The position numbers and the translations under genes are program-made. The notes beneath the pieces were generated by a model. That model searched no databases. It was not told the origin of the DNA and saw only the letters and a list, made by a program, of their open reading frames with translations. This document shows positions 17,115 through 31,692 of a DNA stretch of 56,801 nucleotides, one piece after another. Origin of the DNA: an uncultured Bacilli bacterium. Lineage in GTDB: Bacteria; Bacillota_I; Bacilli_A; RF39; UBA660. The stretch lies in the NCBI GenBank assembly GCA_949065595.1, contig CARSXK010000004.1:1-56801 (forward strand). The letters run 5' to 3'. Numbering within the stretch: the stretch's first letter is position 1; each line of letters begins with the position of its first letter.

Positions 17115-18188
17115 GTGTATCGAGGAAAGTATCAAAAATTATTAATTGTAGTTTCCATTTTTTTAGTTGGAATTCTTTTGTTCTTTGTTTTGAAACCACG
17201 ACAAAAAAAGCAGGATGAATACACTTGTTATCCACAAATTATTTTAAAAGGTAATAAGATTGTTTCCGTTTTTGTTGGGGAGGAGTATCAAGAATCTGGG
17301 TATGAATTAAAAGATAGTTGTGGTGAAAATTTAGAGAGTAGAATTGAAATTCAAAGTGATTTGAATAGTAATAGACCAGGTACTTATCAAATTGTTTATA
17401 AGGTTAGTAATCAATATGGTAATTTTACAGAGGAAAAACGATATGTAACAGTAAAGGCAAGTTCTCTTTCTTATCAGGATACTTACGATAAGATTGATAA
17501 TAAGGTACGGGGCTGGGGAATTCCCAATAAGAAGGATGGAGCACGACCCATTGAAGCAGGCAGTGTGAGAGAAAACCTGTTGCAATATAATGCGTATTTA
17601 ATTGGAAATGATGAAAAAAAACTATATTTGACATTTGATGAAGGAAGCAATGATACCTATTTGGAACAAATTGTAGATATACTGAATGCGAATGATGTGA
17701 AGGCAACTTTCTTTTTCTGTAGAAGATATATATTGGATCATCCTGAATTGATGAAAAAATTAGTGGAAACAGGGCATTCAGTTGGGAACCATACAGCTAA
17801 TCACTATCAGATGCCAAAATATGCAACAAGGGAAGGCTTTTCAAAATATATAGATGAGATTACAGCTGTAGAAGTGGCATTTGAACAGGTAACTGGCACT
17901 TCAATGGACCGTATTTACCGGGAGCCAAAAGGGGAATATAGTTATCGTAGTTTGCAGATTGTCAAGGATTTAGGGTATAAGACCTATTTTTGGAGCGTTG
18001 CCTATTTAGATTATGCGGATGATGTGAGCAAAGAAAGAGCTTTTCAAGAACTCACTTCTAGAGTACATAATGGCGCGATTTATTTGATTCATCCTAAAAA
18101 TAAAGGTAATTATGAAGCTATGGATGATTTTATTAAAGCGATGAAACAACAAGGTTATACATTTGATTTGGTAAAAAATATTGGATAA
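17115..18188 (+). CDS. PdaA-like polysaccharide (MurNAc) deacetylase with N-terminal TM helix and Ig-like domain
   Basis: 'LYLTFDEG', 'GNHTANH', 'FWSVAYLDY' and 'GAIYLIH' closely parallel B. subtilis PdaA motifs. GTG start behind GGGAGG. Confidence 0.8.
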   Translation: MYRGKYQKLLIVVSIFLVGILLFFVLKPRQKKQDEYTCYPQIILKGNKIVSVFVGEEYQESGYELKDSCGENLESRIEIQSDLNSNRPGTYQIVYKVSNQYGNFTEEKRYVTVKASSLSYQDTYDKIDNKVRGWGIPNKKDGARPIEAGSVRENLLQYNAYLIGNDEKKLYLTFDEGSNDTYLEQIVDILNANDVKATFFFCRRYILDHPELMKKLVETGHSVGNHTANHYQMPKYATREGFSKYIDEITAVEVAFEQVTGTSMDRIYREPKGEYSYRSLQIVKDLGYKTYFWSVAYLDYADDVSKERAFQELTSRVHNGAIYLIHPKNKGNYEAMDDFIKAMKQQGYTFDLVKNIG

Positions 18189-20868: not shown

Positions 20869-20997
20869 AATTTATTATCAAAATTATAATTTATGGCAAT
20901 AAAATGAAATAGAACTTCAAATGTAGCTTAAAATAGTGTTTTTTCTTTTTGTCTCCAAACTGGGCAGCTTACATATAATGATTTAGGAGGAGATTAT

Positions 20998-21039
20998 ATG
21001 AATAATTTTCAAGTCGTTGTAGATGCTGGACATGGCTGA
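20998..21039 (+). pseudogene. 5' fragment (13 codons, MNNFQVVVDAGHG*) of the split N-acetylmuramoyl-L-alanine amidase gene
   Basis: A TATAAT box (20974..20979) and AGGAGG SD precede the ATG. The frame is cut inside the Amidase_3 'DAGHGG' motif by the element. Confidence 0.8.
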
Positions 21040-21054
21040 TACAGTTATGCCAAG
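21037..21054. repeat. left terminal inverted repeat arm (TGATACAGTTATGCCAAG)
   Basis: 14/18 match to the reverse complement of 30486..30503. Confidence 0.7.
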
Positions 21055-21094
21055 ACAAGTGAGAAGGCATGTTAGGGCAGATAATACAAGGAAT

Positions 21095-21118
21095 GATACA
21101 CATTGTATCGTTTTTTTT
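21095..21118 (+). terminator. intrinsic terminator just inside the left end
   Basis: GATACA-CAT-TGTATC stem-loop, then G and T8. It would block read-through from the amidase promoter. Confidence 0.6.
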
Positions 21119-21189
21119 ATTTTGTCAAGGTAAAGGTCTTACCATGAGTTTATTTGCAATTCGTGTCTATAATAGTGTCATGAAAGGAG
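21113..21189 (+). promoter_or_regulatory. repeated ~77-nt regulatory module, copy A
   Basis: About 87% identical to 25092..25168. Contains TTGTCAA, dyad GGTAA-N5-TTACC, TATAAT and SD GAAAGGAG. Confidence 0.6.
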
Positions 21190-21196
21190 CAAAAAA

Positions 21197-21445
21197 ATGT
21201 TTAATATGGGTATTGATTGGGACAATGAAATTAAATTTATTTGTAGTGTTGATTGGGACGATATAGTTAATTTACATAATATAAGAAAAGGGTTGAAAAA
21301 GGGAGAGTTTACCGAAATACAAATTGAAGAAAGACCTTGCGTTTTAATTAGTAAGCATAACATTTTATGTAATAAAACACTTTTAGAATGCGTATGGGAA
21401 CATGATGATATATTATTTATAAAAATGAAAAAAACGGTTGATTAG
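21197..21445 (+). CDS. hypothetical protein (82 aa)
   Basis: ATG 8 nt after GAAAGGAG of module A. No recognisable motif. Confidence 0.45.
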   Translation: MFNMGIDWDNEIKFICSVDWDDIVNLHNIRKGLKKGEFTEIQIEERPCVLISKHNILCNKTLLECVWEHDDILFIKMKKTVD

Positions 21446-21645
21446 CCGTTTTCTTTTTGTATTTTATCTTTTAATTTTAAGTTATCTAGGGCATATCTTA
21501 TACATTGGTTTATCAATTCATTTCTACTAATATCAATTTCATTTGCTAGTTTGTCAATTTCTTCTAGCATAGTGTTATCTATACGAATTGTTGCAACAAC
21601 TTTTTCAATAGAAGTCGGTTTTTTATAAGGTTCAAATTCTTTCAT
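21442..21645 (-). CDS. ribbon-helix-helix (CopG/Arc-like) DNA-binding protein
   Basis: Beta-strand 'VVATIRIDNTML' followed by two helices, 'EEIDKLANEIDISRNELINQCIRYALDNL'. Confidence 0.65.
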   Translation of the reverse strand: MKEFEPYKKPTSIEKVVATIRIDNTMLEEIDKLANEIDISRNELINQCIRYALDNLKLKDKIQKENG

Positions 21646-21761
21646 AATTTCACGCCCTTTCTATATATATTTTAATGCTTTTTTGTCTTTGATAATATAC
21701 TTAATATGCGAAGTTAAAATACATCATATAATGTAATCTATGATAAAATACAAAAATGTAA

Positions 21762-21790
21762 TTGACACAATTTGATAATAGTAGTAGAAT
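21762..21790 (+). promoter_or_regulatory. sigma-A promoter TTGACA-17-TAGAAT
   Basis: Consensus -35, 17-nt spacer, good -10. Lies upstream of the surface-protein gene. Confidence 0.55.
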
Positions 21791-21872
21791 GAAATTGTCG
21801 GTAAGAAGTACCATGTCCGACATTGCAGTAATGTTGGTGGCAGTATGCAGTTATGCCAACATATGCATTATC

Positions 21873-21906
21873 GGAACACAAGGAAGTTTATCGTGTTCCA
21901 TTTTTT
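21873..21906 (+). terminator. leader terminator/attenuator upstream of the surface-protein gene
   Basis: GGAACAC/GTGTTCC stem followed by A and T6, 70 nt before ATG 21976. Confidence 0.55.
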
Positions 21907-21975
21907 AAATAATAATGTTTAAAGGACATTTATTATAGATAAAATTTTAATATGTTAGAAAGGAAAGATAAAAAA

Positions 21976-23250
21976 ATGAAAAAAACAAGTAAAATTTTAT
22001 TATCAGCATTAGCAGTATCTAGTATGTTCTTTACTATGACAGTTAATGCAGAAGAACTAACACCAAGTGAAAATCAAGAGCCAGTACAAGTAACTAGAAT
22101 GGGGGCAGAGACTTTTGATGCCATAACAAAGGAAAAATTTGATAGTATTGTCCCAAATACTATTGAAATTACTAAAACTAAAACAGAATTTTCTAATGCA
22201 GTTGTCAAAGATAATGGAAGTCTAAACGAGGATTTAACTAAAATAATAGAAGAAATTAATACAGAGATAGAAACAGAAATAATATCTTTATTTGAAAATT
22301 CAGGATATATGGATACAGAAGAGATAGAAAAAGAAGCAATAAAAGCACAATTTAATGACCCTTTTTACGATTTGTATTCAGTAACAGTTTCATTAAATAT
22401 AGATGGGAAAACAAAATATTCAAAAGATATAACAATTAAATATGCAAAAGAAAGTAATTATAGTGCAACTGATGAAACTTATGTAAAAAATGCCGTTAAC
22501 AGTATTAAATTTGCAAAATATGGCAATAGCGATTGGGGAATTGAAGAAAGTGATGCTGTATTTACAATGTATAACATAGGCGATGAAGAAAGTACTAAGA
22601 ATTGGGGGTATGAGAATTATGATTTTAATACCTTAATCAATGATAATTCTATAACTATTAAAACTTCAGTGTTTGCAGGTGGTTTTGGTGGTGGTACTCC
22701 TTGGGGTACTCCTGTATTATTACATTTTTATAAAAATGGTGTATTATATGAAACAAAGTCAATTTGGTATTTAGGTGCTTATGGAATAACACTAGAAAAT
22801 GGAACACCTGTTAATATGGCAAGATTAGAACAAGACGACGAAATTTACAAAGCAATGGCAAAAGAATTAGAAAGTAAAGGCTTTACAAATGTTCTAGGTT
22901 GTTATGAGTTGACGGCTTATGGAACAACTTATGACAATATGAGAGTATCATTTAATCTAGGAACTAACTATAATGGTAAAGAAGTGCAAATATTACATAA
23001 AAAGAAAGACAATACTTATGAAATATTTAAAACAACAGTAGCAGACGGAAAAGCAGAAATAACAGTTAATGAGTTTTCACCATTCATGATTGCTTTAACT
23101 GAAAACACTACTACTGAAAATGTAAATAAAGCACCTAACAATGCTCAAACTTCTTCAATGAATATTGTATTATATTCTATATTGGCTCTTGGCTCTCTAG
23201 TGGGAATTACTTATATATTAGTTAGCAATAAGAAAAAGGAAATAGCCTAG
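21976..23250 (+). CDS. secreted surface protein with class-B-sortase-type sorting signal (NAQTS + TM helix + KKKE tail)
   Basis: Signal peptide 'MKKTSKILLSALAVSSMFFTMTVNA'. C-terminus 'APNNAQTSSMNIVLYSILALGSLVGITYILVSNKKKEIA'. ATG 21976 follows AAAGGAAAG. Confidence 0.7.
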   Translation: MKKTSKILLSALAVSSMFFTMTVNAEELTPSENQEPVQVTRMGAETFDAITKEKFDSIVPNTIEITKTKTEFSNAVVKDNGSLNEDLTKIIEEINTEIETEIISLFENSGYMDTEEIEKEAIKAQFNDPFYDLYSVTVSLNIDGKTKYSKDITIKYAKESNYSATDETYVKNAVNSIKFAKYGNSDWGIEESDAVFTMYNIGDEESTKNWGYENYDFNTLINDNSITIKTSVFAGGFGGGTPWGTPVLLHFYKNGVLYETKSIWYLGAYGITLENGTPVNMARLEQDDEIYKAMAKELESKGFTNVLGCYELTAYGTTYDNMRVSFNLGTNYNGKEVQILHKKKDNTYEIFKTTVADGKAEITVNEFSPFMIALTENTTTENVNKAPNNAQTSSMNIVLYSILALGSLVGITYILVSNKKKEIA

Positions 23251-23276
23251 TTGCTATTTCTTTCTATTTTAGGACT

Positions 23277-24023
23277 ATGAAAAGAAAAATTAAAGTAAAA
23301 AATATTATATTGATTTTATTTATAGTAGTGTTCTTATTCTCTACTACTCAAATTGTGTTATTCTTATTTGATTCACACAAAAATAAAAAGGAAACAAAAG
23401 AACTTATACAAGATGTTATCAATATAGAAATAGAAGAAGAAAAAGAAGTTTTTAAAATTGATTTTGATAAGTTATTATCTATTAATAGTGATACTGTTGG
23501 TTGGGTACGATTTAATAGTGATAAGGTAAATAACCCTATTGTACATACAAGTGATAATTCGTATTATTTAAAAAGGTCTTTTGATAAATCATATAATCAA
23601 GCAGGAGCAATATTCATGGACTACAGAAATACATCTTTTAATGATAAAAATGTTGTATTATTCGGTCATGCTATGCTAGATGACACAATGTTTGGCTCAC
23701 TACAAGACATATTTAAAAATGGTTTCTTTGATACGAAAGAAAATAACTATATTCAAATATACAATAAAGACAATGAACTTCTAACCTATCAAATATTTAG
23801 TTATTATATTATTGAAAAGGAAGAATATTATATAACTACTTCATTTAATAGTGATAGTGATTTCAATAAATTTATTGATACCATTACAAGAAGAAGTTAT
23901 AAAAAATTTGATGTTGAAGTAAATACAAGTGATAAAATACTTACACTCTCTACTTGTTCGGGTACGGGTGGAACATCTAAAAGAAAGGTTGTACACGCAA
24001 AAAGAGTTGAAAATTTAGAATAG
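23277..24023 (+). CDS. srtB: class B sortase
   Basis: N-terminal TM anchor, 'VGWVRF...NPIVHTSDNSYYL', 'VLFGHAM', catalytic 'LTLSTCS'. Confidence 0.85.
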   Translation: MKRKIKVKNIILILFIVVFLFSTTQIVLFLFDSHKNKKETKELIQDVINIEIEEEKEVFKIDFDKLLSINSDTVGWVRFNSDKVNNPIVHTSDNSYYLKRSFDKSYNQAGAIFMDYRNTSFNDKNVVLFGHAMLDDTMFGSLQDIFKNGFFDTKENNYIQIYNKDNELLTYQIFSYYIIEKEEYYITTSFNSDSDFNKFIDTITRRSYKKFDVEVNTSDKILTLSTCSGTGGTSKRKVVHAKRVENLE

Positions 24024-24130
24024 TCTATAAAATAATTTTGGGACAAATAATTGTGATCCAAAATTATTTTTTGTTTTAATATATATAATAATGGTAAAAA
24101 ATGGTATAATTGTCGTAGGAGGAATGCTTT

Positions 24131-24592
24131 ATGAATAATGAAATAGAATTTATTTGTCAAAAATGTGGAAAAAATTTTTATAAATCAAATGAGGAAAAAG
24201 TAATAAAATGCCCCTTTTGTCATGCTAAAGATACTTTTATGTCATTAAGTCAAAAAGACTTTGAAAATATTATGGAAGTGGAAAATCTAAAAATTACTTG
24301 TGATAATTGCTTGGCTAATTTTAACGGAGAACAATTGATAACTAATGATTTTAAATGCCCAACATGTAATAAAAAGTATAGTGAAGATAGTGTATACAAT
24401 TCAATAAAAAAGATAGAAAAAAGATATGCATGTAATACATGCAATTGTAAATTTTCAACGGAAGTATTTTTTGCATATAATGGTTCTTGTCCTAATTGTC
24501 ATGATAATTTAATGTCTATTGAACAATGGGAAGATTATAAAGCAGTTGAATTAGACGGAAAAATACCTGATGAAGATTGGCAAAATTTGTAA
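24131..24592 (+). CDS. protein with three tandem CxxC...CxxC zinc-ribbon units
   Basis: 'CQKCG..KCPFC', 'CDNC..KCPTC' and 'CNTCN..CPNC'. TGGTATAAT extended -10 and AGGAGG lie upstream. Confidence 0.6.
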   Translation: MNNEIEFICQKCGKNFYKSNEEKVIKCPFCHAKDTFMSLSQKDFENIMEVENLKITCDNCLANFNGEQLITNDFKCPTCNKKYSEDSVYNSIKKIEKRYACNTCNCKFSTEVFFAYNGSCPNCHDNLMSIEQWEDYKAVELDGKIPDEDWQNL

Positions 24593-24616
24593 TATAGTGC
24601 TGAATAGAGGTTAATT

Positions 24617-25048
24617 ATGAAAAATGAAGAATTAGAAGAATTAGTATGTAGATTTGAAGATAATTTTGGTATAGACGGAAAGTTAGAGAAAAACTTTTCT
24701 GAAAAATTTAAAATACTACTAGAAGAAAAAGAAATTGAAGTAGACGAATTTATGGAAGAAACGGGGTTAAGCGATGAAATATTTGGTAATTATTGCAAAG
24801 GGAAAAGTGACCCAAGTTTAAGAAGTATAACCGCATTTTGTCATGCTTTTGAATTTGATAGAAATGCTTTTGATAGTTTATTAAAAGCGGGAGGCTTCAC
24901 AGTTAATTATCGAAAGAAAAGAGATTGTGCATATGCTTTTTTGATAACTGATTGTGCTGATTTGAGCATTGAAGATTGTAATAAAATTTTAAAAAAGATA
25001 GGGTTGGAAGAACACGAATTATTGCCAATACCTAAAAAATTAAAATAA
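24617..25048 (+). CDS. XRE-like helix-turn-helix protein
   Basis: 'FKILLEEKEIEVDEFMEETGLSDEIFGNYCKGKSDPSLRSITAFCHAF' has an HTH_3-like pattern. Confidence 0.5.
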   Translation: MKNEELEELVCRFEDNFGIDGKLEKNFSEKFKILLEEKEIEVDEFMEETGLSDEIFGNYCKGKSDPSLRSITAFCHAFEFDRNAFDSLLKAGGFTVNYRKKRDCAYAFLITDCADLSIEDCNKILKKIGLEEHELLPIPKKLK

Positions 25049-25091
25049 TATATATCGTTGTTTTATAAGGTCATAACTTAATAATTATGGC

Positions 25092-25168
25092 TTTTTTATT
25101 TTGTCAAGGTAAAGGCTTTACCGTGAGTTGATTTGCAAGTTGTGGTTATAATGGTGTCACGAAAGGAG
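25092..25168 (+). promoter_or_regulatory. repeated ~77-nt regulatory module, copy B
   Basis: Paralog of 21113..21189. The dyad here is GGTAAAG-G-CTTTACC. Confidence 0.6.
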
Positions 25169-25178
25169 GAAAGAGGCA

Positions 25179-25535
25179 TTGAAAACAAGTGATATTGTTA
25201 TTGATGTCATCAAAACTATTGGTAAAGCACCTTATCTTGCATGTAGTTGCGACCCAATTTATGAATATGATGAACATAATAACAAAACTGACAATGTAAT
25301 TGGACATAAAGTTGAAATCTTGTTGCCACACATGAAATATGCTAAATTTGGTGTTAAAGTTGATAATACAACAAACCCACTACCAACTATTGAAGATGTT
25401 GTAGAAGTTGACTTTAACAACTTAATGATTGGCATTTATGTTGACCGTGCAGGAAGAATACAACCTTATGGGAAAGCTGATAGTGTTCGTATTGCTGATA
25501 AACAAAATATCAAAATGAATGCAAAGGCTGAATAA
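25179..25535 (+). CDS. hypothetical protein, possibly DUF961/HelP-like OB-fold accessory factor
   Basis: TTG start behind GAAAGGAGG. Its size and position, directly upstream of the Rep and coupling-protein genes, resemble ICEBs1 helP and Tn916 orf22/23. The sequence resemblance is only loose. Confidence 0.35.
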   Translation: MKTSDIVIDVIKTIGKAPYLACSCDPIYEYDEHNNKTDNVIGHKVEILLPHMKYAKFGVKVDNTTNPLPTIEDVVEVDFNNLMIGIYVDRAGRIQPYGKADSVRIADKQNIKMNAKAE

Positions 25536-25553
25536 TTACTAAAATTTATTATT

Positions 25554-25602
25554 GCTACATGCTACATGCTACACAATAAGTGGTAATACTAGCACTTATT
25601 GT
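25554..25602 (+). promoter_or_regulatory. candidate Rep origin (ori/oriT): 3 x 7-nt iterons plus stem-loop with a nonanucleotide-like loop
   Basis: GCTACAT GCTACAT GCTACAC (25554..25574) overlap a 10-bp perfect stem, ACAATAAGTG/CACTTATTGT (25573..25602), with loop GTAATACTAG. Confidence 0.6.
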
Positions 25603-25606
25603 TGGT

Positions 25607-25641
25607 GCGGAGGCAATCGTGGCTATCGCCACTTGCCCCGC
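25607..25641 (+). other. GC-rich nested hairpin (possible sso or accessory origin structure)
   Basis: GCGG-A-GGCAA pairs with TTGCCCCGC, enclosing GTGGC-TATC-GCCAC. It stands out in an AT-rich context. Confidence 0.45.
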
Positions 25642-25739
25642 AATGTACATGTATTATCTAGTATGTGTAATCGCATTAGTTCTTTGAAAATTTAATTATA
25701 TTTAATATTTGCTATAACAAACTTATTGGAGGTGTATAC

Positions 25740-26741
25740 ATGGCGGAAAATAGCCAATCTAGAAAATGGCAACTGACTATAAATAACCCCCAAGAACATG
25801 GAATAACGGACGAGTTTATACGAGAACAATTATTAAAATTTGCCCCCGAATATTATTGTATGGGTCGAGAGATTGGAAACAAGACCAAGACCGAACATAT
25901 ACATCTTTTTATCTATTCTAAATCTCCTATGAGGTTTACAACTATTAAAAATCGTTTCCCTATGGCTCATATAGAAAAAGCATACGGAAGTATTAGAGAT
26001 AATATAGATTATATACAAAAAAAGGGTAAGTGGGAAAATACCGCAAAAGAAGAAACTACCATTGAGGGCAGTTTTGTAGAACATGGAACGGTACCTACCG
26101 AACTAATAGAAAAAGACGCAACTATGGGTAAATTGTTAGAAGATATAAAAGACGGGAAATCTATTATTGAAATTATAGAAGATAATCCACAATTTGCATT
26201 TAAGATTAAAGATATAGAAACTATTAGACAAACTTATCTTAATGAAAGATATTCACGAGAAAATCGTGATTTGATAGTGACATATTTAAGTGGTCCAAGC
26301 GGTGTGGGAAAAACATTTAGTATTTTTAAAAAACATAAAGCAGATAATATTTGCCGTATAACAAGTTATAATTCAAGCCAAGGCGGTATAATTTTTGATA
26401 ATTATGATAGGTCGCAAGATGTACTTGTTTTTGAGGAATTTAGAAGTCAAATAAACCTAGAAAGCATGTTAAATTATTTAGATGTTTACCCACTACGACT
26501 TCCCGCTAGATACAATAATAAAGTGGCATGTTATACGAGGGTTTATATTACATCAAATGTTCCATTTGAAAATCAATATGCGGAATATAAACTGAATTCA
26601 AGAGATTATGCAGTATATAAAGCATGGTGTCGGCGAGTTCATAATATTTATGAAATGGTAAAAGAGCAAGACGGCTCTATAAAAATAATCACACATAAAG
26701 AAACTAAAAAAGAGGAGGAAAAAGTTATTGAAAATAAATAA
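25740..26741 (+). CDS. HUH endonuclease + SF3-helicase Rep protein (CRESS-virus/plasmid Rep-like; probable relaxase/replication initiator)
   Basis: Motif I 'WQLTINNP', motif II 'HIHLFIY', motif III 'YIQKKG', Walker A 'GPSGVGKT', Walker B 'VLVFEEF', motif C 'YITSN'. Confidence 0.8.
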   Translation: MAENSQSRKWQLTINNPQEHGITDEFIREQLLKFAPEYYCMGREIGNKTKTEHIHLFIYSKSPMRFTTIKNRFPMAHIEKAYGSIRDNIDYIQKKGKWENTAKEETTIEGSFVEHGTVPTELIEKDATMGKLLEDIKDGKSIIEIIEDNPQFAFKIKDIETIRQTYLNERYSRENRDLIVTYLSGPSGVGKTFSIFKKHKADNICRITSYNSSQGGIIFDNYDRSQDVLVFEEFRSQINLESMLNYLDVYPLRLPARYNNKVACYTRVYITSNVPFENQYAEYKLNSRDYAVYKAWCRRVHNIYEMVKEQDGSIKIITHKETKKEEEKVIENK

Positions 26742-28245
26742 AATAATTGAAATAAAAGATAAAATTAAAGGTTGGTATTGTAAAAGTAAAATAGTATCTA
26801 TTATTCAATCTATACTTTTAATTACATTTAAGGTTTTAAAATATATAATATGGCAATTATTTTATCATTGGAAGATTGGAGTATTTTTACTAACTATTAT
26901 ATGTTTATATTATTTCAATCAAAATGAAACATTGATAAATAAAGTTTTTGATTTTCATATTTTAAATTTCTATATTGCAAAAGTAATTACTTTATATGAT
27001 TTTCATAAAAATTTACAAATATCACAATATGTTTTAGAAGGTGCAATATTATTATTGATTATGTTATCTTTAATTTTTAGTTTTAGACTAAAGGATCTAA
27101 AACAAAACAAAATTAACAAAATTAAAGTATTGAAAGAAAAAGGTGTTGAATTACCATATTTTACATGGCGAACTAGATTGTGGTTAAACTTAAAAATAGC
27201 AGTATGGTATTGGAATATGAACGGAATAGACCCTAAAGTATTTGAAAGTGATGAGTTTAAAGGTAGTTTTCAGTCGGCATTTAATGTCACATTCATTGAT
27301 AAACAACCCGTAAAAAATAGTAAAAATACAATAAAATTGTTAGTTGCAAGTCGTAGATATAGTTTGCCTAACAAAATTTCAATAGATATACGAGATATAG
27401 ACTATTTTGGTCCTATATTTTTATTAGGGGAAAATTTAATAGGAAAAATAAAAATTGATATAAGTAAAAGACCTCATTTATTAATCGCAGGAGATACAGG
27501 AAGTGGTAAATCGGTGCTAATCGATTCACTTATTTATCAAGCCATGTTAAAAGGCTATGTGATTCGAGCATGTGACCCAAAACAAACTGAATTTAACGGG
27601 TGGCACAATCTTACTATAAGAAATACTAATCTTTTGAATACTGAAATTAAAGCTAGTCAATTTTTAAGAACAATGGATTTAAAAGGAACTTTAGAAGATT
27701 TAAAACTCATAGAAAAAGAATTAAGATTAAGACAAATGATTTTTGCAGATGTAAAATGTAGAAATATAGATAAATACAACAAAAAATTACACCATACAAA
27801 ATCAAGTATTCCTTTAAGTCGTGTAATTTATATTTTTGACGAGTTTGTAGAAATGATAACATCACAAGATAAAAAGACTGTATCGGAAATAGAACGAATA
27901 TTGAAACTCATAGCAACAAGAGGTCGTTCACTTGGTATACATCTTATTTTATCGTCACAAAGACCCGATTGTAATTTACTAGACGGACAAATAAAATCTA
28001 ATCTTTCCAATAGAATATGTGGTAGAATGCCTGATAGGTCGGCATCCGAAACGGCTTTAGGTAAAGGGAATTATGATGCATGTACTTTAATAGGTGAAGA
28101 CGAATTAGGTAAATTTGTTACAAATGACGGTAAATGTTTTAAAGGTTATTTGCTTGATACTGATAAATTAACGGAAGAATTACACGAGCAATATGACAAA
28201 AAAGATACAAGCAATCTAGGAGGAAATAATAATGTTGAGCAATGA
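26728..28245 (+). CDS. FtsK/SpoIIIE-TcpA-like coupling ATPase, membrane anchored
   Basis: N-terminal TM helices, Walker A 'AGDTGSGKS', Walker B 'IYIFDEF', 'GIHLILSSQRP'. Confidence 0.8.
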   Translation: MKINKIIEIKDKIKGWYCKSKIVSIIQSILLITFKVLKYIIWQLFYHWKIGVFLLTIICLYYFNQNETLINKVFDFHILNFYIAKVITLYDFHKNLQISQYVLEGAILLLIMLSLIFSFRLKDLKQNKINKIKVLKEKGVELPYFTWRTRLWLNLKIAVWYWNMNGIDPKVFESDEFKGSFQSAFNVTFIDKQPVKNSKNTIKLLVASRRYSLPNKISIDIRDIDYFGPIFLLGENLIGKIKIDISKRPHLLIAGDTGSGKSVLIDSLIYQAMLKGYVIRACDPKQTEFNGWHNLTIRNTNLLNTEIKASQFLRTMDLKGTLEDLKLIEKELRLRQMIFADVKCRNIDKYNKKLHHTKSSIPLSRVIYIFDEFVEMITSQDKKTVSEIERILKLIATRGRSLGIHLILSSQRPDCNLLDGQIKSNLSNRICGRMPDRSASETALGKGNYDACTLIGEDELGKFVTNDGKCFKGYLLDTDKLTEELHEQYDKKDTSNLGGNNNVEQ

Positions 28246-28375
28246 AAAAAGTACGATTTGCCCCCGTACTTTTGCCCAATATCTTGCATGTATTGATAAA
28301 CCTAGTATAACAAATAACTTTCATATTGACAAGCACCCTATCATACCTTTTATTGAGGGGTTGAAATATGAATAA
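28232..28375 (+). CDS. small ORF (47 aa), hypothetical
   Basis: Not in the ORF track (shorter than 60 aa). AGGAGG sits 8 nt upstream. It overlaps the end of the FtsK-like gene and the start of the next small ORF. Confidence 0.35.
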   Translation: MLSNEKSTICPRTFAQYLACIDKPSITNNFHIDKHPIIPFIEGLKYE

Positions 28376-28493
28376 ATATAAAATTGTAGTATCTAGTGAA
28401 TTTCTAACGGACACAACAACGGACGAGTTTCTATCGCTTTTTAATGATAAATTGGCGACCCTATTTATCTATTATGAACAACAAACAAGTTAA
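28368..28493 (+). CDS. small ORF (41 aa), hypothetical (candidate recombination directionality factor)
   Basis: GAGGGG SD upstream. The 8-nt overlap with the previous small ORF suggests translational coupling. It lies directly upstream of the recombinase. Confidence 0.3.
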   Translation: MNKYKIVVSSEFLTDTTTDEFLSLFNDKLATLFIYYEQQTS

Positions 28494-28510
28494 ATATTAA
28501 ATAAAGGCTG

Positions 28511-28551
28511 AAATAATACAAGTTATAGTGTATAATATACTTGTATTATTT
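28511..28551 (+). terminator. 13-bp perfect hairpin between the small ORFs and the recombinase gene
   Basis: AAATAATACAAGT/ACTTGTATTATTT with a 15-nt loop that contains TATAAT. Confidence 0.45.
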
Positions 28552-28586
28552 TGACCTTAACATGTAATTAAGGAAAGGAATATTAT

Positions 28587-30485
28587 ATGTTAAGTGAACA
28601 AAAAGGCGGTGAAACTTATTCTTATAATAATACAAAATCAAGTTATAGTATTCAAAATGTTTCGTTAGAAGATTATACAAGTTCGGTTGAGTATAAAGCA
28701 ATCAAAGATTTACTTGTAGAAGATAGTCTTATTTATTGTACTGAATTTATAAGAAAACTATTAGATATTAAAAAGCCAAATGATACCACTTGTTTTACTT
28801 GTGGCGAGGGCAATCAAATAGTCTATAAGTTAGGGTATGGAAAAAGGACTTTATTGTATGTTCGATTATCAGTTGAAGATATACAAAGAAAAGATACAAC
28901 GGTTAGTAAAAGTATTTTAAATCAGTTGCTATTGCTACTACAATATTGCAAAGACCATGACCTAGAAGTTGTTGGCATTTTCTATGAGGAAGATATAAGC
29001 GGTGGCGATGAAAGTAGACCCGAGTGGAACAAGTCCTTAACTTTTTGTGAAAGAGGACACACCGACACTTATATTTGCAAAACACAATCACGATTTGCAA
29101 GAGATGTTGAAATGATAGAACGATACTTGCATAAAAGATTTATTGAGTGGAATATTCGTTTTTTAAGTATTGTAGACCATAGCGACACATCACAAAAAGG
29201 AAATAAACTACAAAGACAAATAACCGCAATCGTTGATGAAAATAAAATTGCTGAACAATCAATAAATACTAAAGCAACTTTACGAGGTAAAAATAAGGCG
29301 GGACAATGGACGGGGTCTTTTGCTTGTTATGGCTATATAGAAGACCCAAACGACCAATATCATCTAGTAGTAGACCCACCCGCAGCCCAAGTGGTGCAAA
29401 CAATATATAAAATGTATGCGGAGGGTATGGGGTACTTTAAAATATGTAAGTATCTTAATGAACATAATATACCTACACCAAGTAAATATAAGAAATTACA
29501 AGGGTCAAACTTTGTATGTCCTGTTGCCCCAAATGGTAGCGAGTTTTGGAACATTGATACGGTTGCAAAAATATTGAAAGATGAAACATACGACGGGTTA
29601 TTGATACAAAATAGAACGGAAACAATCTCACATAATATTAAGAAGTCAAGAAAATTGCCAAAGAGTGAGCAAACTATTGTTGCTTGTGCTCATGAAAGAA
29701 TTGTTGACCCTATTATATCAAGAATAGTACGAGATAAATTTGAGGCAAGGGCGAAAAAGTCAAGTGATAGTGATGACACTATACATGCAAGACCTAAACC
29801 CGATAAAAACGGCGAGGTACATATTTTTAGTCAAAAAGTATACTGTGCTCATTGTGGGAAAATTTTTCAAAAGACTAATGCTAAAAGTGGTCCTAGGAAA
29901 AACCCAACAAAGAAAGCATATTTACTATGTAGAACAAAGAAAAGAACTTGTGGAACGGGTTGTGATAATAACTCATCAATTCGTATTGAAGTCTTGGAAC
30001 AAATAGTACTAGACGAAATTAACAAACAAATAGAGAACTACTATAATCAATCTAAATTTGAAAAAAGTTATTATGAGAAGAAAGTAAACACCAATTATGA
30101 AAAAGATATAAAAGCACTAGAGGAAGAAAAGACCACCATTGAAAAGAAAATAAAAGATAATACCAATCGTTTTGCTTTACTTTATGAAGATAGAGCGAAC
30201 GAGATTATAACAACACAAGAATTTATGTTGTTGAAAACAAAATATAATGATGAAATAGAAAGGTTTAATAATCGTGTAAGTGAGATTGATAATACCATAA
30301 TCAATTTACGAAAGAAGAAAGACCAACAAATACACGAGCAAGATATATTTAAACAATATAGACATATTGATAAATTAGATAGACTTGTTGTTGAAACCTT
30401 TATATCAAAAATAATTGTTGGAAAAGTTGATAAAGAAACAAACGAAAGGGCTATAAATATTGTTTGGAATATTTGTAGCACCTAG
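28587..30485 (+). CDS. large serine recombinase (SpoIVCA/TndX-like)
   Basis: Catalytic 'LLYVRLSVEDIQ', recombinase domain, zinc ribbon 'CAHCGK...LLCRTKKRTCGTGC', long coiled-coil tail. The stop codon is 27 nt from the right junction. Confidence 0.9.
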   Translation: MLSEQKGGETYSYNNTKSSYSIQNVSLEDYTSSVEYKAIKDLLVEDSLIYCTEFIRKLLDIKKPNDTTCFTCGEGNQIVYKLGYGKRTLLYVRLSVEDIQRKDTTVSKSILNQLLLLLQYCKDHDLEVVGIFYEEDISGGDESRPEWNKSLTFCERGHTDTYICKTQSRFARDVEMIERYLHKRFIEWNIRFLSIVDHSDTSQKGNKLQRQITAIVDENKIAEQSINTKATLRGKNKAGQWTGSFACYGYIEDPNDQYHLVVDPPAAQVVQTIYKMYAEGMGYFKICKYLNEHNIPTPSKYKKLQGSNFVCPVAPNGSEFWNIDTVAKILKDETYDGLLIQNRTETISHNIKKSRKLPKSEQTIVACAHERIVDPIISRIVRDKFEARAKKSSDSDDTIHARPKPDKNGEVHIFSQKVYCAHCGKIFQKTNAKSGPRKNPTKKAYLLCRTKKRTCGTGCDNNSSIRIEVLEQIVLDEINKQIENYYNQSKFEKSYYEKKVNTNYEKDIKALEEEKTTIEKKIKDNTNRFALLYEDRANEIITTQEFMLLKTKYNDEIERFNNRVSEIDNTIINLRKKKDQQIHEQDIFKQYRHIDKLDRLVVETFISKIIVGKVDKETNERAINIVWNICST

Positions 30486-30503
30486 TTTGGTATAGCAGTA
30501 TCA
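30486..30503. repeat. right terminal inverted repeat arm (TTTGGTATAGCAGTATCA)
   Basis: Its reverse complement matches 21037..21054 at 14 of 18 positions. Confidence 0.7.
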
Positions 30504-30512
30504 AGGGCATGG

Positions 30513-31692
30513 TGGGAGTGATCCAGGCGCTGTTGCAAATGGTGTTCAAGAAAAAGATTTAAACTTGCAAATAGCCCGTTATATGTATGAACAGTTTCAA
30601 AATAGGGGAATTCCTGTAACATTAATTCGTAGCACAGATGAAACCATTAGTCCAACAGAACGTGTTAATAGAATACTTGCTGCCTATGGTGATAACCCTA
30701 ATGTAGTTGTTATTTCCAATCACATTAATGCATCAGGATCAGCAACATCGGGCGCAGAGGGTGCTGAAGTAATCTATGCTTTGAGAAATGATGATACACT
30801 TGCCAAAAATATATTACAGGCGATTGGAAACCAAGGGCAAGTTGTAAGAACCTATTATCAAAGACGATTACCAAGTGATACTTCAAAGGACTACTACTTT
30901 ATTCACAGAAATACAGGTAGTACCCAACCTGTGATTGTAGAATATGGATATATTGACAATCCATCCGATTTAGCACGTATTCAAAATAATTATAAAAAAT
31001 ATGTGGATGCTGTTGTAAATGCAGTTATCGCAACCAAACAAGGGCAAACTATTCCGTCTGCACCAGGAACAGGAACTTCTTATGTGGTGAAACCAGGAGA
31101 TAGTTTATGGAGTATCGCAAATCGCTATAATACTACTGTAAATGCAATTAAAAATATGAATAATCTAACAAGTAATACCCTATCAGTAGGGCAGGTACTA
31201 CAAATACCAACCAGTACATCTACTGGGACAGGAACAACTTATACTGTAAAATCAGGGGATAGTCTATGGAGTATCGCAAATCGTTATAATACTACTGTGG
31301 ATGCGATTAAAAATGCCAATAATTTAACTAGCAATACCTTATCGATTGGGCAAGTACTGCAAATACCAACGAGTACATCTACTGGGACAGGAATAACTTA
31401 TACTGTAAAATCAGGGGATAGTTTATGGAGTATTGCAAATCGTTATAATACTACTGTAAGTGCAATCAAAAGTGCCAACAATTTAACAAGTGACATACTA
31501 TCCATTGGGCAAGTACTACAAATACCAACGAGTACATCTACTGGGGCAGGAACTACTTATACCGTGAAATCAGGAGATAGTTTGTGGAGCATTGCGAATC
31601 GTTATAATACTACTGTCGATGCCATCAAAAAAGCGAGTGGAATTATCAGTAATAATTTAACCATTGGTCAAGTATTAACCATTCCAAATTAG
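30513..31692 (+). pseudogene. 3' portion of the split N-acetylmuramoyl-L-alanine amidase (Amidase_3 + 4 LysM)
   Basis: The frame opens at 30496 and reads 'GHGGSDPGAVANGVQEKDLNLQIARYM...ISNHINAS...EYGYIDN', then four LysM repeats. It has no start or SD of its own (the track uses TTG 30565). Confidence 0.8.
31081..31689 (+). repeat. four tandem ~159-bp LysM-plus-TSTSTGTG-linker coding repeats
   Basis: 'TYTVKSGDSLWSIANRYNTTV.AIK.ANNLTSN.LSIGQVLQIP' occurs four times with near-identical DNA. Confidence 0.9.

What the first reader, a model, noticed from the sequence alone, without database searches (positions are those of the whole stretch)
20998..31692. A 9.48-kb serine-recombinase element splits an Amidase_3/LysM cell-wall hydrolase gene inside its DAGHGG motif, and precise excision would rebuild the gene (skin-like)
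Seen in the sequence:
- A TATAAT box, AGGAGG and ATG 20998 encode MNNFQVVVDAGHG, then TGA at 21037.
- At 30496 a frame reopens and reads ..GHGGSDPGAVANGVQEKDLNLQIARYM.., running to 31692 through an Amidase_3 domain and 4 LysM repeats. It has no start codon or SD of its own.
- Both junctions carry CATGG (21031..21035 and 30508..30512).
- Joining them gives GCT GGA CAT GGT GGG AGT, an uninterrupted 405-codon ORF.
- The intervening 9477 bp begin and end with imperfect inverted repeats: TGATACAGTTATGCCAAG versus the reverse complement TGATACTGCTATACCAAA (14/18).
- A 632-aa large serine recombinase gene ends 27 nt from the right junction.

Established knowledge: large serine recombinases (SpoIVCA in skin/sigK, SprA in SPbeta/spsM) excise intervening elements from mother-cell-expressed sporulation genes.

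Inference: this host is a spore former (spo0A, SASPs, and a pdaA-like gene 3 kb away). The amidase has no signal peptide and resembles mother-cell lytic or cortex enzymes. The element may therefore be excised developmentally to restore the gene. The simpler alternative is a plain insertional knockout by a mobilizable element.
Basis: partly seen in the sequence, partly recalled or inferred. Interest (0 to 1): 0.85.

Follow-up and report, generated by a model that had tools for sequence, protein, structure and literature searches.

The report
Mobile element that targets cell-wall amidase genes
A 9.5-kb mobile DNA element has cut a spore-former's cell-wall amidase gene in two at the codon for a catalytic histidine. 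The same element splits other amidase genes, including the spore-cortex gene cwlD, at the same codon in related gut bacteria, so it is an actively spreading, motif-seeking element rather than a proven sporulation switch.

Summary
Removing 9,477 bp (21033-30509) rebuilds a 405-codon Amidase_3 + 4xLysM gene, and its first 14 residues are identical to those of intact orthologs.

New findings:
1. **Crossover.** It is the CA of the His codon in D-[A/P]-G-H-G-G. A sister strain shows the exact predicted empty site.
2. **Mobility.** The identical 632-aa TnpX-like serine recombinase occurs in at least four genomic contexts. The element is 99.86% identical to the window's in one of them and 91-99% in two others. 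All four contexts are Amidase_3 genes, and two are CwlD-like.
3. **Target range.** Recombinases 82-89% identical to it sit in five further amidase genes at the same codon. About 10% of species representatives of this clade of uncultured, small-genome gut Bacilli carry some element at this site.
4. **Content.** The element has an HUH/SF3 Rep, an FtsK-like ATPase, a sortase with a surface protein, and repressors. It has no phage genes.
5. **Host.** The host has Spo0A and SASPs. Orthologs of the amidase share a sigma-K-type promoter motif (40/53 against 1/544 controls).

No sporulation-type promoter precedes the recombinase or any other element gene. The one insertion pair tested for shared ancestry was acquired horizontally. 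The skin-like reading is therefore possible but unsupported (about 0.2). This is a new variant of a known kind.

The parts
20954..20980 (+). Putative promoter of the amidase gene. It reads TC-N16-CATATAATG, with TATAAT at 20974-20979. In most orthologs the same position reads AC-N16/17-CATAnnnTA, a sigma-K-type motif.
   Evidence: 40/53 ortholog upstream regions carry the full motif against 1/544 control ORF upstream regions. The sigma-factor assignment is an inference.
20985..20990 (+). Ribosome-binding site AGGAGG of the amidase gene.
   Evidence: It is conserved in orthologs.
20998..21032 (+). 5' fragment of the amidase gene: codons 1-11 plus the CA of His12. As interrupted, it reads MNNFQVVVDAGHG and stops at 21037-21039.
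   Evidence: The N-terminus is identical to intact orthologs.
21031..21032 (+). Left copy of the crossover dinucleotide CA (attL core).
   Evidence: The attL/attR polymorphisms in other contexts, and the empty site in L101, bracket the exchange to this CA.
21033..30509 (+). The 9,477-bp integrative element, counted with one copy of CA.
   Evidence: It is 99.86% identical over 9,513 aligned bp to the copy in L087 and 100% identical to the copies in L090 and L093.
21037..21054 (+). Left terminal inverted repeat TGATACAGTTATGCCAAG (P' arm of attP), 4 nt from the CA.
   Evidence: 14/18 match to the right repeat. It is identical in all copies.
21197..21445 (+). 82-aa ORF of unknown function. It is conserved at the left end of related elements.
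   Evidence: no family hit.
21442..21645 (-). Ribbon-helix-helix (CopG/Arc-like) repressor, 67 aa.
   Evidence: PF01402, E 2.5e-5; Arc-like repressor PHROGs.
21952..23250 (+). 432-aa secreted surface protein with an N-terminal signal peptide and a C-terminal hydrophobic segment plus KKK tail. It is a variable cargo gene.
   Evidence: sequence; this module is replaced in the context-B copies.
23277..24023 (+). Sortase, 248 aa (cargo gene).
   Evidence: PF04203, E 1.1e-15.
24131..24592 (+). Zinc-ribbon protein, 153 aa.
   Evidence: several CxxC pairs.
24617..25048 (+). HTH (Cro/C1-type) regulator, 143 aa.
25179..25535 (+). 118-aa ORF of unknown function.
25740..26741 (+). Rep protein, 333 aa. 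It combines an HUH endonuclease (EHIHLFIY) with a P-loop (GPSGVGKT), and is a candidate rolling-circle initiator or relaxase.
   Evidence: PF02407, E 3.1e-7; motifs read directly in the sequence.
26728..28245 (+). FtsK/SpoIIIE-family ATPase, 505 aa. It is a candidate DNA translocase or coupling protein.
   Evidence: (PF01580, E 1.6e-16).
28232..28493 (+). Two small ORFs (47 and 41 aa) just upstream of the recombinase gene. Their function is unknown, and they are the only positional candidates for an accessory or directionality factor.
   Evidence: They have no family hits, so this role is speculative.
28514..28549 (+). Putative recombinase promoter and operator. An extended -10 (TGTATAAT, 28529-28536) lies within the palindrome ATAATACAAGT ... 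ACTTGTATTAT.
   Evidence: sequence. No sigma-E/K-type motif is present here.
28587..30485 (+). Large serine recombinase, 632 aa, of TnpX/TndX type (Resolvase + Recombinase + Zn_ribbon_recom + DUF4368).
   Evidence: The only PDB match is TnpX. The exact protein is found in 49 sample blocks.
30486..30503 (+). Right terminal inverted repeat TTTGGTATAGCAGTATCA (P arm of attP), 4 nt from the CA.
30508..30509 (+). Right copy of the crossover dinucleotide CA (attR core).
30508..31692 (+). 3' fragment of the amidase gene, from His12 to the stop. It covers the rest of Amidase_3 and the four LysM repeats and is fully open.
   Evidence: The reconstituted 405-aa protein is 94-95% identical to the intact orthologs P0003 and P0004.

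Best explanation
The insert is an active, non-phage integrative element of IME type.

**Integration.** Its TnpX/TndX-like large serine recombinase uses, as its chromosomal attachment site, the DNA that encodes the zinc-binding D-[A/P]-G-H-G-G motif of Amidase_3 peptidoglycan amidases. Strand exchange occurs at the CA of the histidine codon. In this window the element has recently entered the host's signal-less Amidase_3-LysM4 gene. That gene is probably sporulation-expressed and analogous to the mother-cell lysin CwlC.

**Consequence.** The insertion separates the promoter and the first 11 codons from the rest of the gene. The catalytic His is interrupted after its first two bases and is followed, after one Gly codon, by a stop. 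The amidase is therefore off while the element is integrated.

**Reversal.** The exchange is conservative, so recombinase-mediated excision restores the gene exactly.

**Why this target (inferred).** The motif is conserved in many Firmicute genomes, and the genes hit (cwlC-like, cwlD) are dispensable for vegetative growth. That would give the element a wide host range at low cost.

**Shown:** anatomy, crossover point, empty site, multi-gene targeting and horizontal spread.
**Inferred:** that excision actually occurs (by analogy with TnpX, which needs no accessory factor), the transfer route (Rep plus FtsK-like ATPase), and the amidase's sporulation role.
For: **Structure and reconstitution**
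- Searches give the anatomy and the rebuilt ORF.
- Intact orthologs have an identical N-terminus.

**Same recombinase in several amidase genes**
- The identical recombinase protein is found in 49 sample blocks and in four different contexts.
- All four contexts are Amidase_3 genes cut at the same His codon.
- Two are CwlD-like. TIGR02883 is the top hit at 198-202 bits, and NCBI names the intact form CwlD.

**Crossover**
- attL carries attP's T and attR carries attB's C around a shared CA.
- Strain L101 (flanks 99.96% identical) holds exactly the predicted attB and an intact 216-aa CwlD.

**Recent horizontal spread**
- The element is 99.86% identical between the window and L087.
- Between L041 and L044, element genes are 97-100% identical apart from one divergent 501-aa cargo ORF (81.5%), while host genes are 80-85% identical.

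**Wider targeting**
- Recombinases 89% and 82% identical occupy five more amidase genes at the same codon.
- About 8 of 80 species representatives are interrupted at this site, by at least six different element right ends.

**Element type**
- It has the TnpX-type domain set, and TnpX is its only PDB match.
- DUF4368 marks the multi-targeting TndX clade (PMC10083194).
- The Tn4451 recombinase acts without a directionality factor at a 2-bp core (PMC5704250).
- The element has no phage genes.
Against: - Excision was not observed. No attP junction was found in the JGI contigs, although that collection evidently lacks these samples.
- The exact intact 405-aa allele of this strain is not in the protein collection.
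- The transfer machinery is only inferred from domain hits.
- The cwlD-interrupted strain recurs almost clonally in at least six samples. That would be surprising if the knockout were never repaired, because cwlD loss blocks germination in model species. This hints at some form of rescue.
Confidence: 0.72

Rival explanations
1. Skin- or SPbeta-like developmental switch. The element stays in the germ line (forespore). In the mother cell during sporulation it is excised by its recombinase, under sigma-E/K control or with a sporulation-controlled directionality factor. This rebuilds the amidase gene (and cwlD in other hosts) exactly when it is needed.
For: - The host has Spo0A and SASPs.
- Amidase orthologs carry a conserved sigma-K-type promoter motif.
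- Two other targets of the same element are CwlD-like. In B. subtilis cwlD is a sigma-E-controlled cortex gene.
- Both gene halves are intact, and excision is exact.
- The cwlD::element strain persists across at least six samples.
- There is precedent for non-phage and still-mobile intervening elements: gin in gerE and SPbeta in spsM (PMC5595907, PMC4191935).
Against: - No sigma-E/K-type motif precedes the recombinase or any element gene. The recombinase promoter looks sigma-A-type with an operator.
- No directionality factor could be identified.
- In the one pair tested for shared ancestry the insertions were acquired horizontally, and the window's copy is near-identical to one in another host. 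There is therefore no sign of long-term co-inheritance, and conservation of the split gene cannot be used as evidence.
- Other targets of the clade are signal-less amidases whose role in sporulation is unknown.
- A 71%-identical relative sits in a non-amidase gene.
Confidence: 0.2
2. Dead-end insertion. The element is fixed and no longer excises, and the amidase is simply a fresh pseudogene that the host tolerates.
For: - The intact allele of this exact strain was not found.
- In B. subtilis loss of cwlC alone has little phenotype (established knowledge).
- In one context (L092) the amidase 3' part is additionally truncated.
Against: - All element ORFs and both ends are intact and are 99.9-100% identical to copies elsewhere.
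- The same recombinase has clearly moved between several sites recently.
- The amidase fragments show no decay.
Confidence: 0.07
3. Assembly artefact. The junctions are chimeric joins of a mobile element and an amidase gene.
For: Several metagenomic contigs break exactly at the junction (L046, L065, L002, L003, L005).
Against: - Independent assemblies from different samples reproduce both junctions base for base (L090, L093).
- The junction structure obeys serine-recombinase rules, and a matching empty site exists.
Confidence: 0.01

Closest known systems
Sporulation gene-intervening elements: skin in sigK (B. subtilis, C. difficile), SPbeta in spsM, vfbin in spoVFB, vrin in spoVR, gin in gerE
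   Same: - A large-serine-recombinase element lies inside the coding sequence of a (probable) sporulation gene of an endospore former.
- Short direct repeats flank the element and inverted repeats lie at its ends.
- Precise excision recreates the ORF.
- Like gin it is non-phage, and like SPbeta it is still mobile.
   Different: - Developmental excision has not been shown, and no sporulation promoter or directionality factor was found.
- One and the same element occupies several different genes.
- The target is a protein-family motif rather than one locus.
- Amidase genes (cwlC-like, cwlD) were not found as targets in the searchable literature.
Tn4451/Tn4453 (TnpX) and Tn5397 (TndX) of clostridia
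   Same: - The recombinase has the same domain set, including DUF4368, and TnpX is its only PDB match.
- Exchange occurs at a 2-bp core.
- It is a small integrative element without its own mating-pore genes.
   Different: - The core is CA rather than GA (the GA core is from my own knowledge of those elements).
- Targeting is strict motif-level targeting of Amidase_3 genes rather than low specificity.
- The mobilisation module is an HUH/SF3 Rep plus an FtsK-like ATPase rather than TnpZ/RSA.
- The cargo is a sortase and a surface protein, not a resistance gene.
Site-specific serine-recombinase IMEs of streptococci that disrupt conserved dispensable genes such as rumA (Guedon et al. 2017, PMC5704250)
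   Same: It follows the same strategy: integration within a conserved, dispensable gene, short direct repeats, and its own integration/excision module plus partial transfer functions.
   Different: - The host clade differs (uncultured spore-forming gut Bacilli).
- The target is a catalytic-motif sequence shared by paralogous and orthologous genes.
LSR clusters that target one conserved coding site (prolyl isomerase, Mg-chelatase/comM-like genes), and motif-directed multi-targeting LSRs (Durrant et al. 2022, PMC10083194)
   Same: - Diverse recombinases (about 37-90% identical) converge on one conserved coding site.
- The DUF4368 clade is multi-targeting and uses sequence motifs.
   Different: Amidase_3 does not appear among the reported targets in the main text or in the supplementary files held. 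Here the motif corresponds to an enzyme active site.
B. subtilis CwlC (mother-cell lysin) and CwlD (cortex delta-lactam amidase)
   Same: - The target genes are Amidase_3 enzymes.
- The window's gene, like CwlC, lacks a signal peptide, has C-terminal wall-binding repeats, and has a sigma-K-like promoter motif.
- The context B and C genes have the CwlD architecture and their top family hit is CwlD.
   Different: - The wall-binding repeats are LysM, not SPOR.
- The CwlD-like proteins score just below the NCBIfam cutoff (198-202 bits against 221.55).
- No expression or function data exist for these uncultured hosts.

Membership tests
Sporulation gene-intervening element (skin/SPbeta/gin type) | It interrupts the coding sequence of a sporulation-specific gene. 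| tested here: inconclusive
   The interruption is certain. Sporulation-specific expression of this amidase is inferred only from the conserved AC-N16/17-CATAnnnTA motif. The sister insertions are in CwlD-like genes.
Sporulation gene-intervening element (skin/SPbeta/gin type) | It encodes a site-specific (serine) recombinase, and excision rebuilds the ORF precisely. | tested here: met
   The LSR lies at 28587-30485. The rebuilt ORF is 405 codons. The empty site in L101 equals the prediction.
Sporulation gene-intervening element (skin/SPbeta/gin type) | Excision is developmentally controlled: it is mother-cell specific, with the recombinase or a directionality factor under sigma-E/K. | tested here: not met
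   The motif scan finds no sigma-E/K-type promoter before any element gene. The recombinase has a sigma-A-like extended -10 with an operator. A motif scan is weak evidence, so experiment is needed.
Sporulation gene-intervening element (skin/SPbeta/gin type) | The element is retained in the spore (germ-line) genome while being lost from the mother cell. | not testable with these tools
   This needs compartment-specific DNA or spore-fraction sequencing.
TnpX/TndX-type large serine recombinase elements | The recombinase has Resolvase + Recombinase + Zn-ribbon domains with a C-terminal DUF4368. | tested here: met
   all four domains; the TnpX catalytic domain is the only PDB hit.
TnpX/TndX-type large serine recombinase elements | Conservative exchange occurs at a 2-bp core, leaving 2-bp direct repeats. 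| tested here: met
   The CA core is defined by the attL/attR polymorphisms and the empty site.
TnpX/TndX-type large serine recombinase elements | The recombinase alone performs both excision (to a circle) and insertion. | not testable with these tools
   A search for the attP junction in JGI contigs was negative but uninformative.
TnpX/TndX-type large serine recombinase elements | The element carries a TnpZ-type Mob protein with an RSA oriT. | tested here: not met
   No Mob/relaxase family hit was found. The element instead carries an HUH/SF3 Rep and an FtsK-like ATPase.
Integrative mobilizable element (IME, sensu Guedon et al. 2017) | It has its own integration/excision module and is flanked by short direct repeats. 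| tested here: met
Integrative mobilizable element (IME, sensu Guedon et al. 2017) | It has some transfer functions (a relaxase and/or coupling protein) but no complete mating-pore apparatus. | tested here: inconclusive
   A Rep (HUH) and an FtsK/SpoIIIE ATPase are present, and no T4SS families were hit in any ORF. Their roles in transfer are inferred.
Amidase_3 N-acetylmuramoyl-L-alanine amidase, CwlC-like mother-cell lysin | It has an Amidase_3 catalytic domain with intact zinc-binding motifs once rejoined. | tested here: met
   profile positions 1-173 of 174 matched; H12 and the other motif residues are invariant.
Amidase_3 N-acetylmuramoyl-L-alanine amidase, CwlC-like mother-cell lysin | It has no signal peptide, has C-terminal wall-binding repeats, and is sigma-K/GerE dependent. 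| tested here: inconclusive
   The protein starts directly at the first strand of the domain and carries four LysM repeats. A sigma-K-type motif is present in 40/53 orthologs, but the window's subclade reads CATATAATG, which is also a perfect sigma-A TATAAT.

The most novel reading that the evidence does not exclude
A horizontally mobile family of serine-recombinase elements has specialised on the catalytic-motif codons of sporulation amidase genes (cwlD and a CwlC-like mother-cell lysin). It is excised in the sporulating cell to restore those genes. This would be a transferable, multi-gene 'skin-like' switch that is common in uncultured spore-forming gut Bacilli, present in about 10% of species at this one locus. 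It would be the first such case for cortex or mother-cell-lysis enzymes, and the first in which one element serves several sporulation genes.
Probability: 0.2. Interest if true: 0.78.

Novelty: new variant of a known kind. Interest (0 to 1): 0.55.

Why it matters
1. **Recombinase specificity.** The recombinase's specificity is best described at the level of a protein-family active-site motif. This explains how one small element can enter many genomes and several loci per genome. It also offers a natural set of related attB sites (at least nine) for studying or engineering LSR specificity.
2. **Sporulation biology.** Sporulation amidases, including cwlD, become recurrent and reversible targets of mobile DNA in a poorly known clade of small-genome gut spore formers. 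If excision is tied to sporulation, the list of gene-intervening elements would extend to cortex and mother-cell-lysis functions.
3. **Annotation.** These split amidase genes will be annotated as truncated genes or pseudogenes, and assemblies will break at them, unless the element is recognised.

Tried and rejected
- **Vertical co-inheritance (L041 against L044).** Rejected. Element genes are 97-100% identical apart from one divergent 501-aa cargo ORF (81.5%), while host genes are 80-85% identical. The insertions are therefore independent or horizontal, and dN/dS of the split gene says nothing about retained function.
- **Exact intact 405-aa allele of this strain.** Not in the 15-billion-protein collection.
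- **Junction searches in JGI metagenome contigs.** The attP junction and the element's right end both gave zero matches. The collection evidently lacks these samples, so the result is uninformative.
- **Megablast of the element against plasmid and phage collections.** No match.
- **Sigma-E/K motif scan for promoters in front of element genes.** Nothing in the sense orientation. Two full sigma-K-type matches lie antisense inside genes and one weak sigma-E-like match overlaps a TATAAT. I dismissed all three as chance.
- **PdaA identity of 17115-18188.** Below the curated cutoff.
- **Literature searches for amidase, cwlD or cwlC as intervening-element or LSR targets.** Nothing relevant.
- **Host of context B.** I considered a Clostridium or segmented-filamentous-bacterium host because of the phospholipase C gene. 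NCBI labels the identical proteins 'Bacilli bacterium', so I dropped the idea.

Full report
**1. The observation**

- A TATAAT box (20974-20979) and AGGAGG (20985-20990) precede ATG 20998. This ORF encodes MNNFQVVVDAGHG and stops at TGA 21037-21039.
- A frame reopens at 30496 and reads ..GHGGSDPGAVANGVQEKDL.. through to the stop at 31692.
- CATGG occurs at both junctions.
- Deleting 9,477 bp gives one 405-codon ORF. Pfam reads it as Amidase_3 (residues 6-185) plus four LysM repeats.
- The 18-nt terminal inverted repeats match at 14/18.
- A 632-aa large serine recombinase (LSR) gene ends just inside the right junction.

The rebuilt ORF is not a coincidence. 115 of the 120 best database homologs are full-length with the GHGG motif in place. 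The closest (94-95% identical, 404 aa) begin with the same MNNFQVVVDAGHGG.

**2. Host and target gene**

The window carries Spo0A (TIGR02875, 267.6 bits against a cutoff of 200) and two alpha/beta-type SASP genes. The host therefore has core endospore genes. The 'pdaA-like' gene scores below the curated cutoff.

Relatives are uncultured gut 'Bacilli bacterium' MAGs with chromosomes of 1.3-1.5 Mb. They include Firmicutes bacterium CAG:822, Ca. Coprosoma and Ca. Pelethosoma.

The amidase has no signal peptide. Its orthologs lie in conserved synteny upstream of dusB and lysS.

Across 53 ortholog upstream regions the only conserved elements are the ribosome-binding site and a motif AC-N16/17-CATAnnnTA, placed 24-31 nt before the start codon.
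- The full motif is present in 40/53 orthologs, against 1/544 other ORF upstream regions in the same loci.
- From established knowledge this is the sigma-K promoter consensus of B. subtilis.
- In contrast, a SASP gene in the window has a canonical sigma-G-like GTATG-N17-CATGATA.
- In B. subtilis, cwlC and cwlH are the late mother-cell lysins, and cwlD is a sigma-E-controlled cortex gene (PMC517825).

I therefore consider the gene a probable CwlC analogue. One caveat applies. In the window's own subclade the -10 element reads CATATAATG, which is also a perfect sigma-A TATAAT.

**3. What the insert is**

Genes, left to right:

| Coordinates | Product |
|---|---|
| 21197-21445 | 82-aa ORF, unknown |
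| 21442-21645 (-) | divergent ribbon-helix-helix repressor |
| 21952-23250 | secreted surface protein |
| 23277-24023 | sortase |
| 24131-24592 | zinc-ribbon protein |
| 24617-25048 | HTH regulator |
| 25179-25535 | 118-aa ORF, unknown |
| 25740-26741 | Rep with HUH motif (EHIHLFIY) and P-loop (GPSGVGKT) |
| 26728-28245 | FtsK/SpoIIIE ATPase |
| 28232-28493 | two tiny ORFs (47 and 41 aa) |
| 28587-30485 | LSR (Resolvase + Recombinase + Zn_ribbon_recom + DUF4368) |

- No phage structural or lysis gene was found, and there is no megablast match to phage or plasmid collections.
- The LSR's only match among solved structures is TnpX of Tn4451.
- In a published survey, DUF4368 marks the 'multi-targeting' TndX-like LSR clade (PMC10083194).
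- A review states that the Tn4451 recombinase performs both integration and excision without a directionality factor, at a 2-bp core (PMC5704250).

**4. The decisive comparative result**

The exact 632-aa LSR protein is present in 49 sample blocks. The same element lies in at least four different genomic contexts:
- **A.** The window's locus (L090 and L093, 100% identical).
- **B.** After spoVG-yabP-divIC in another Bacilli MAG lineage (L086 and five others).
- **C.** After rpsI (L087).
- **D.** Next to Wadjet genes (L092).

In every case the interrupted gene is an Amidase_3 gene cut in the His codon of D-[A/P]-G-H-G-G.

Contexts B and C are CwlD-like. Both proteins have an N-terminal membrane anchor, TIGR02883 is their top hit at 198-202 bits, and NCBI names the intact protein CwlD.

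The element in context C is 99.86% identical to the window's over 9,513 bp, although the host DNA is unrelated.

**5. The crossover point**

In contexts B to D, attL reads ...GGA-CA-TGGCTGATA and attR reads ...AAGGG-CA-CGG.... Only the CA is shared between attP and attB, and the flanking bases segregate as expected for exchange at that dinucleotide.

The predicted empty site was then found. Strain L101 (flanks 99.96% identical to L086) contains exactly ...GACCCCGGACACGGCGGAAAAGATCC... and an intact 216-aa CwlD whose sequence equals my in-silico join.

Integration is thus precise and conservative, as expected for a serine recombinase, and excision would be scarless.

**6. Breadth of targeting**

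- LSRs 89% (P0125) and 82% (P0126) identical to the window's sit in two and three further, mutually different Amidase_3 genes at the same codon.
- A 707-aa subfamily uses the same motif in the opposite orientation (L097).
- A 71%-identical relative sits in an amino-acid-kinase gene instead.
- At the window's own locus, about 8 of 80 species-representative genomes are interrupted at exactly this CATGG. The elements have at least six different right ends, and their LSRs are only about 37-60% identical to the window's.
- Several contigs break at the junction.

**7. Tests of the skin-like reading**

- **Co-inheritance.** L041 and L044 (two species) share an insertion. Their element genes are 97-100% identical apart from one divergent 501-aa cargo ORF (81.5%), while host genes are 80-85% identical (dS 0.64-1.1). 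The insertion is therefore horizontal, not ancestral. In this test, and for the window's own copy (99.86% identical to a copy in another host), the insertions look recent, so intactness of the split gene carries no information.
- **Regulation.** The LSR gene is preceded by an extended -10 (TGTATAAT) within an 11-bp-arm palindrome. No AC-N16/17-CATAnnnTA or sigma-E-type motif precedes any element gene.
- **Direct evidence of excision.** None was obtainable.

In favour of some form of rescue, the cwlD::element strain is found nearly clonally in at least six samples. The truncated CwlD form is on 20 contigs, alongside roughly 100 contigs with intact variants. This would be odd for a lineage with a permanent germination defect.

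**8. Conclusion**

The best-supported explanation is an active IME-type element whose TnpX-like recombinase has evolved to recognise the Amidase_3 active-site codons. It has recently and reversibly knocked out a probable mother-cell lysin here.

A developmentally timed, SPbeta-like excision is not excluded (about 0.2). It is worth testing because the hit genes are sporulation amidases.

I found no report of amidase, cwlD or cwlC genes as targets of intervening elements or LSRs in the searchable literature. I therefore rate the finding as a new variant of known kinds (LSR integrative elements and gene-intervening elements).

Noticed in passing
L001:8588-10000 and L007:3164-9950: In the closest relatives with an intact amidase gene, a different island of about 6.8 kb is inserted immediately upstream of the amidase promoter's -35 region. 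It carries a 427-aa serine recombinase, a type IIG-like N6_Mtase/Eco57I gene and AAA_11/AAA_12 helicases. The locus is therefore a hot spot for two unrelated recombinase elements.
   Followed up: partly
L098:4471-4700 (also L099, L100): A 656-aa relative of the recombinase (42% identical, with a Pfam LysM hit) is followed directly by an attP-like joint. The joint reads ..TTTGGTATAAGCGAGTCTTCCACATGACAGATACAGTTATACCAAG.. and leads into the left-end genes of a second, similar element (82-aa ORF, RHH, surface protein, sortase). It lies inside a 130-kb contig. It may be a tandem (accretion) array or a permuted element.
   Followed up: no
L096:4411-4700: A recombinase 71% identical to the window's is inserted in an amino-acid-kinase (aspartokinase-like) gene rather than an amidase gene. 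Target specificity has therefore switched within this clade.
   Followed up: partly
L097:4624-4720: A 707-aa DUF4368 recombinase subfamily abuts the 5' fragment (MDDYKIVIDAGHG) of an amidase gene on the opposite strand. It uses the same motif with the element in inverted orientation.
   Followed up: partly
L092:11921-12200: In context D the amidase 3' part stops after about 80 codons (..NHINAGGQDA*) and unrelated sequence follows. This is a second disruption downstream of the element.
   Followed up: no
window:28514-28549: A perfect 11-bp-arm palindrome (ATAATACAAGT ... ACTTGTATTAT) encloses the extended -10 of the putative recombinase promoter. It is a likely operator for one of the element's repressors.
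   Followed up: no
window:13176-16028: A 950-aa ORF has an N-terminal half that is a complete cofactor-independent phosphoglycerate mutase (residues 7-504). It continues without a stop into about 450 more residues that include a DUF6273 hit. This is an unusual fusion, or possibly a sequencing error.
   Followed up: no
window:18750-20868: Immediately upstream of the split amidase lie a MazG-like ORF and a 623-aa Schlafen-group-3 helicase. This defence-like pair is absent from that position in L006.
   Followed up: no
window:21952-24023 versus L086:3463-5361: The element's surface-protein and sortase module is replaced by two unrelated ORFs (353 and 272 aa) in the context-B copies. The aligned remainder of the element is 95-99% identical, so the cargo is exchanged as a module.
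   Followed up: partly
L008:7934-9970: In the species closest at this locus (amidase domain 98% identical), a related element occupies the same site. Its recombinase (57-63% identical) aligns in two pieces separated by about 250 nt. This could be an insertion, a frameshift or a divergent segment.
   Followed up: no
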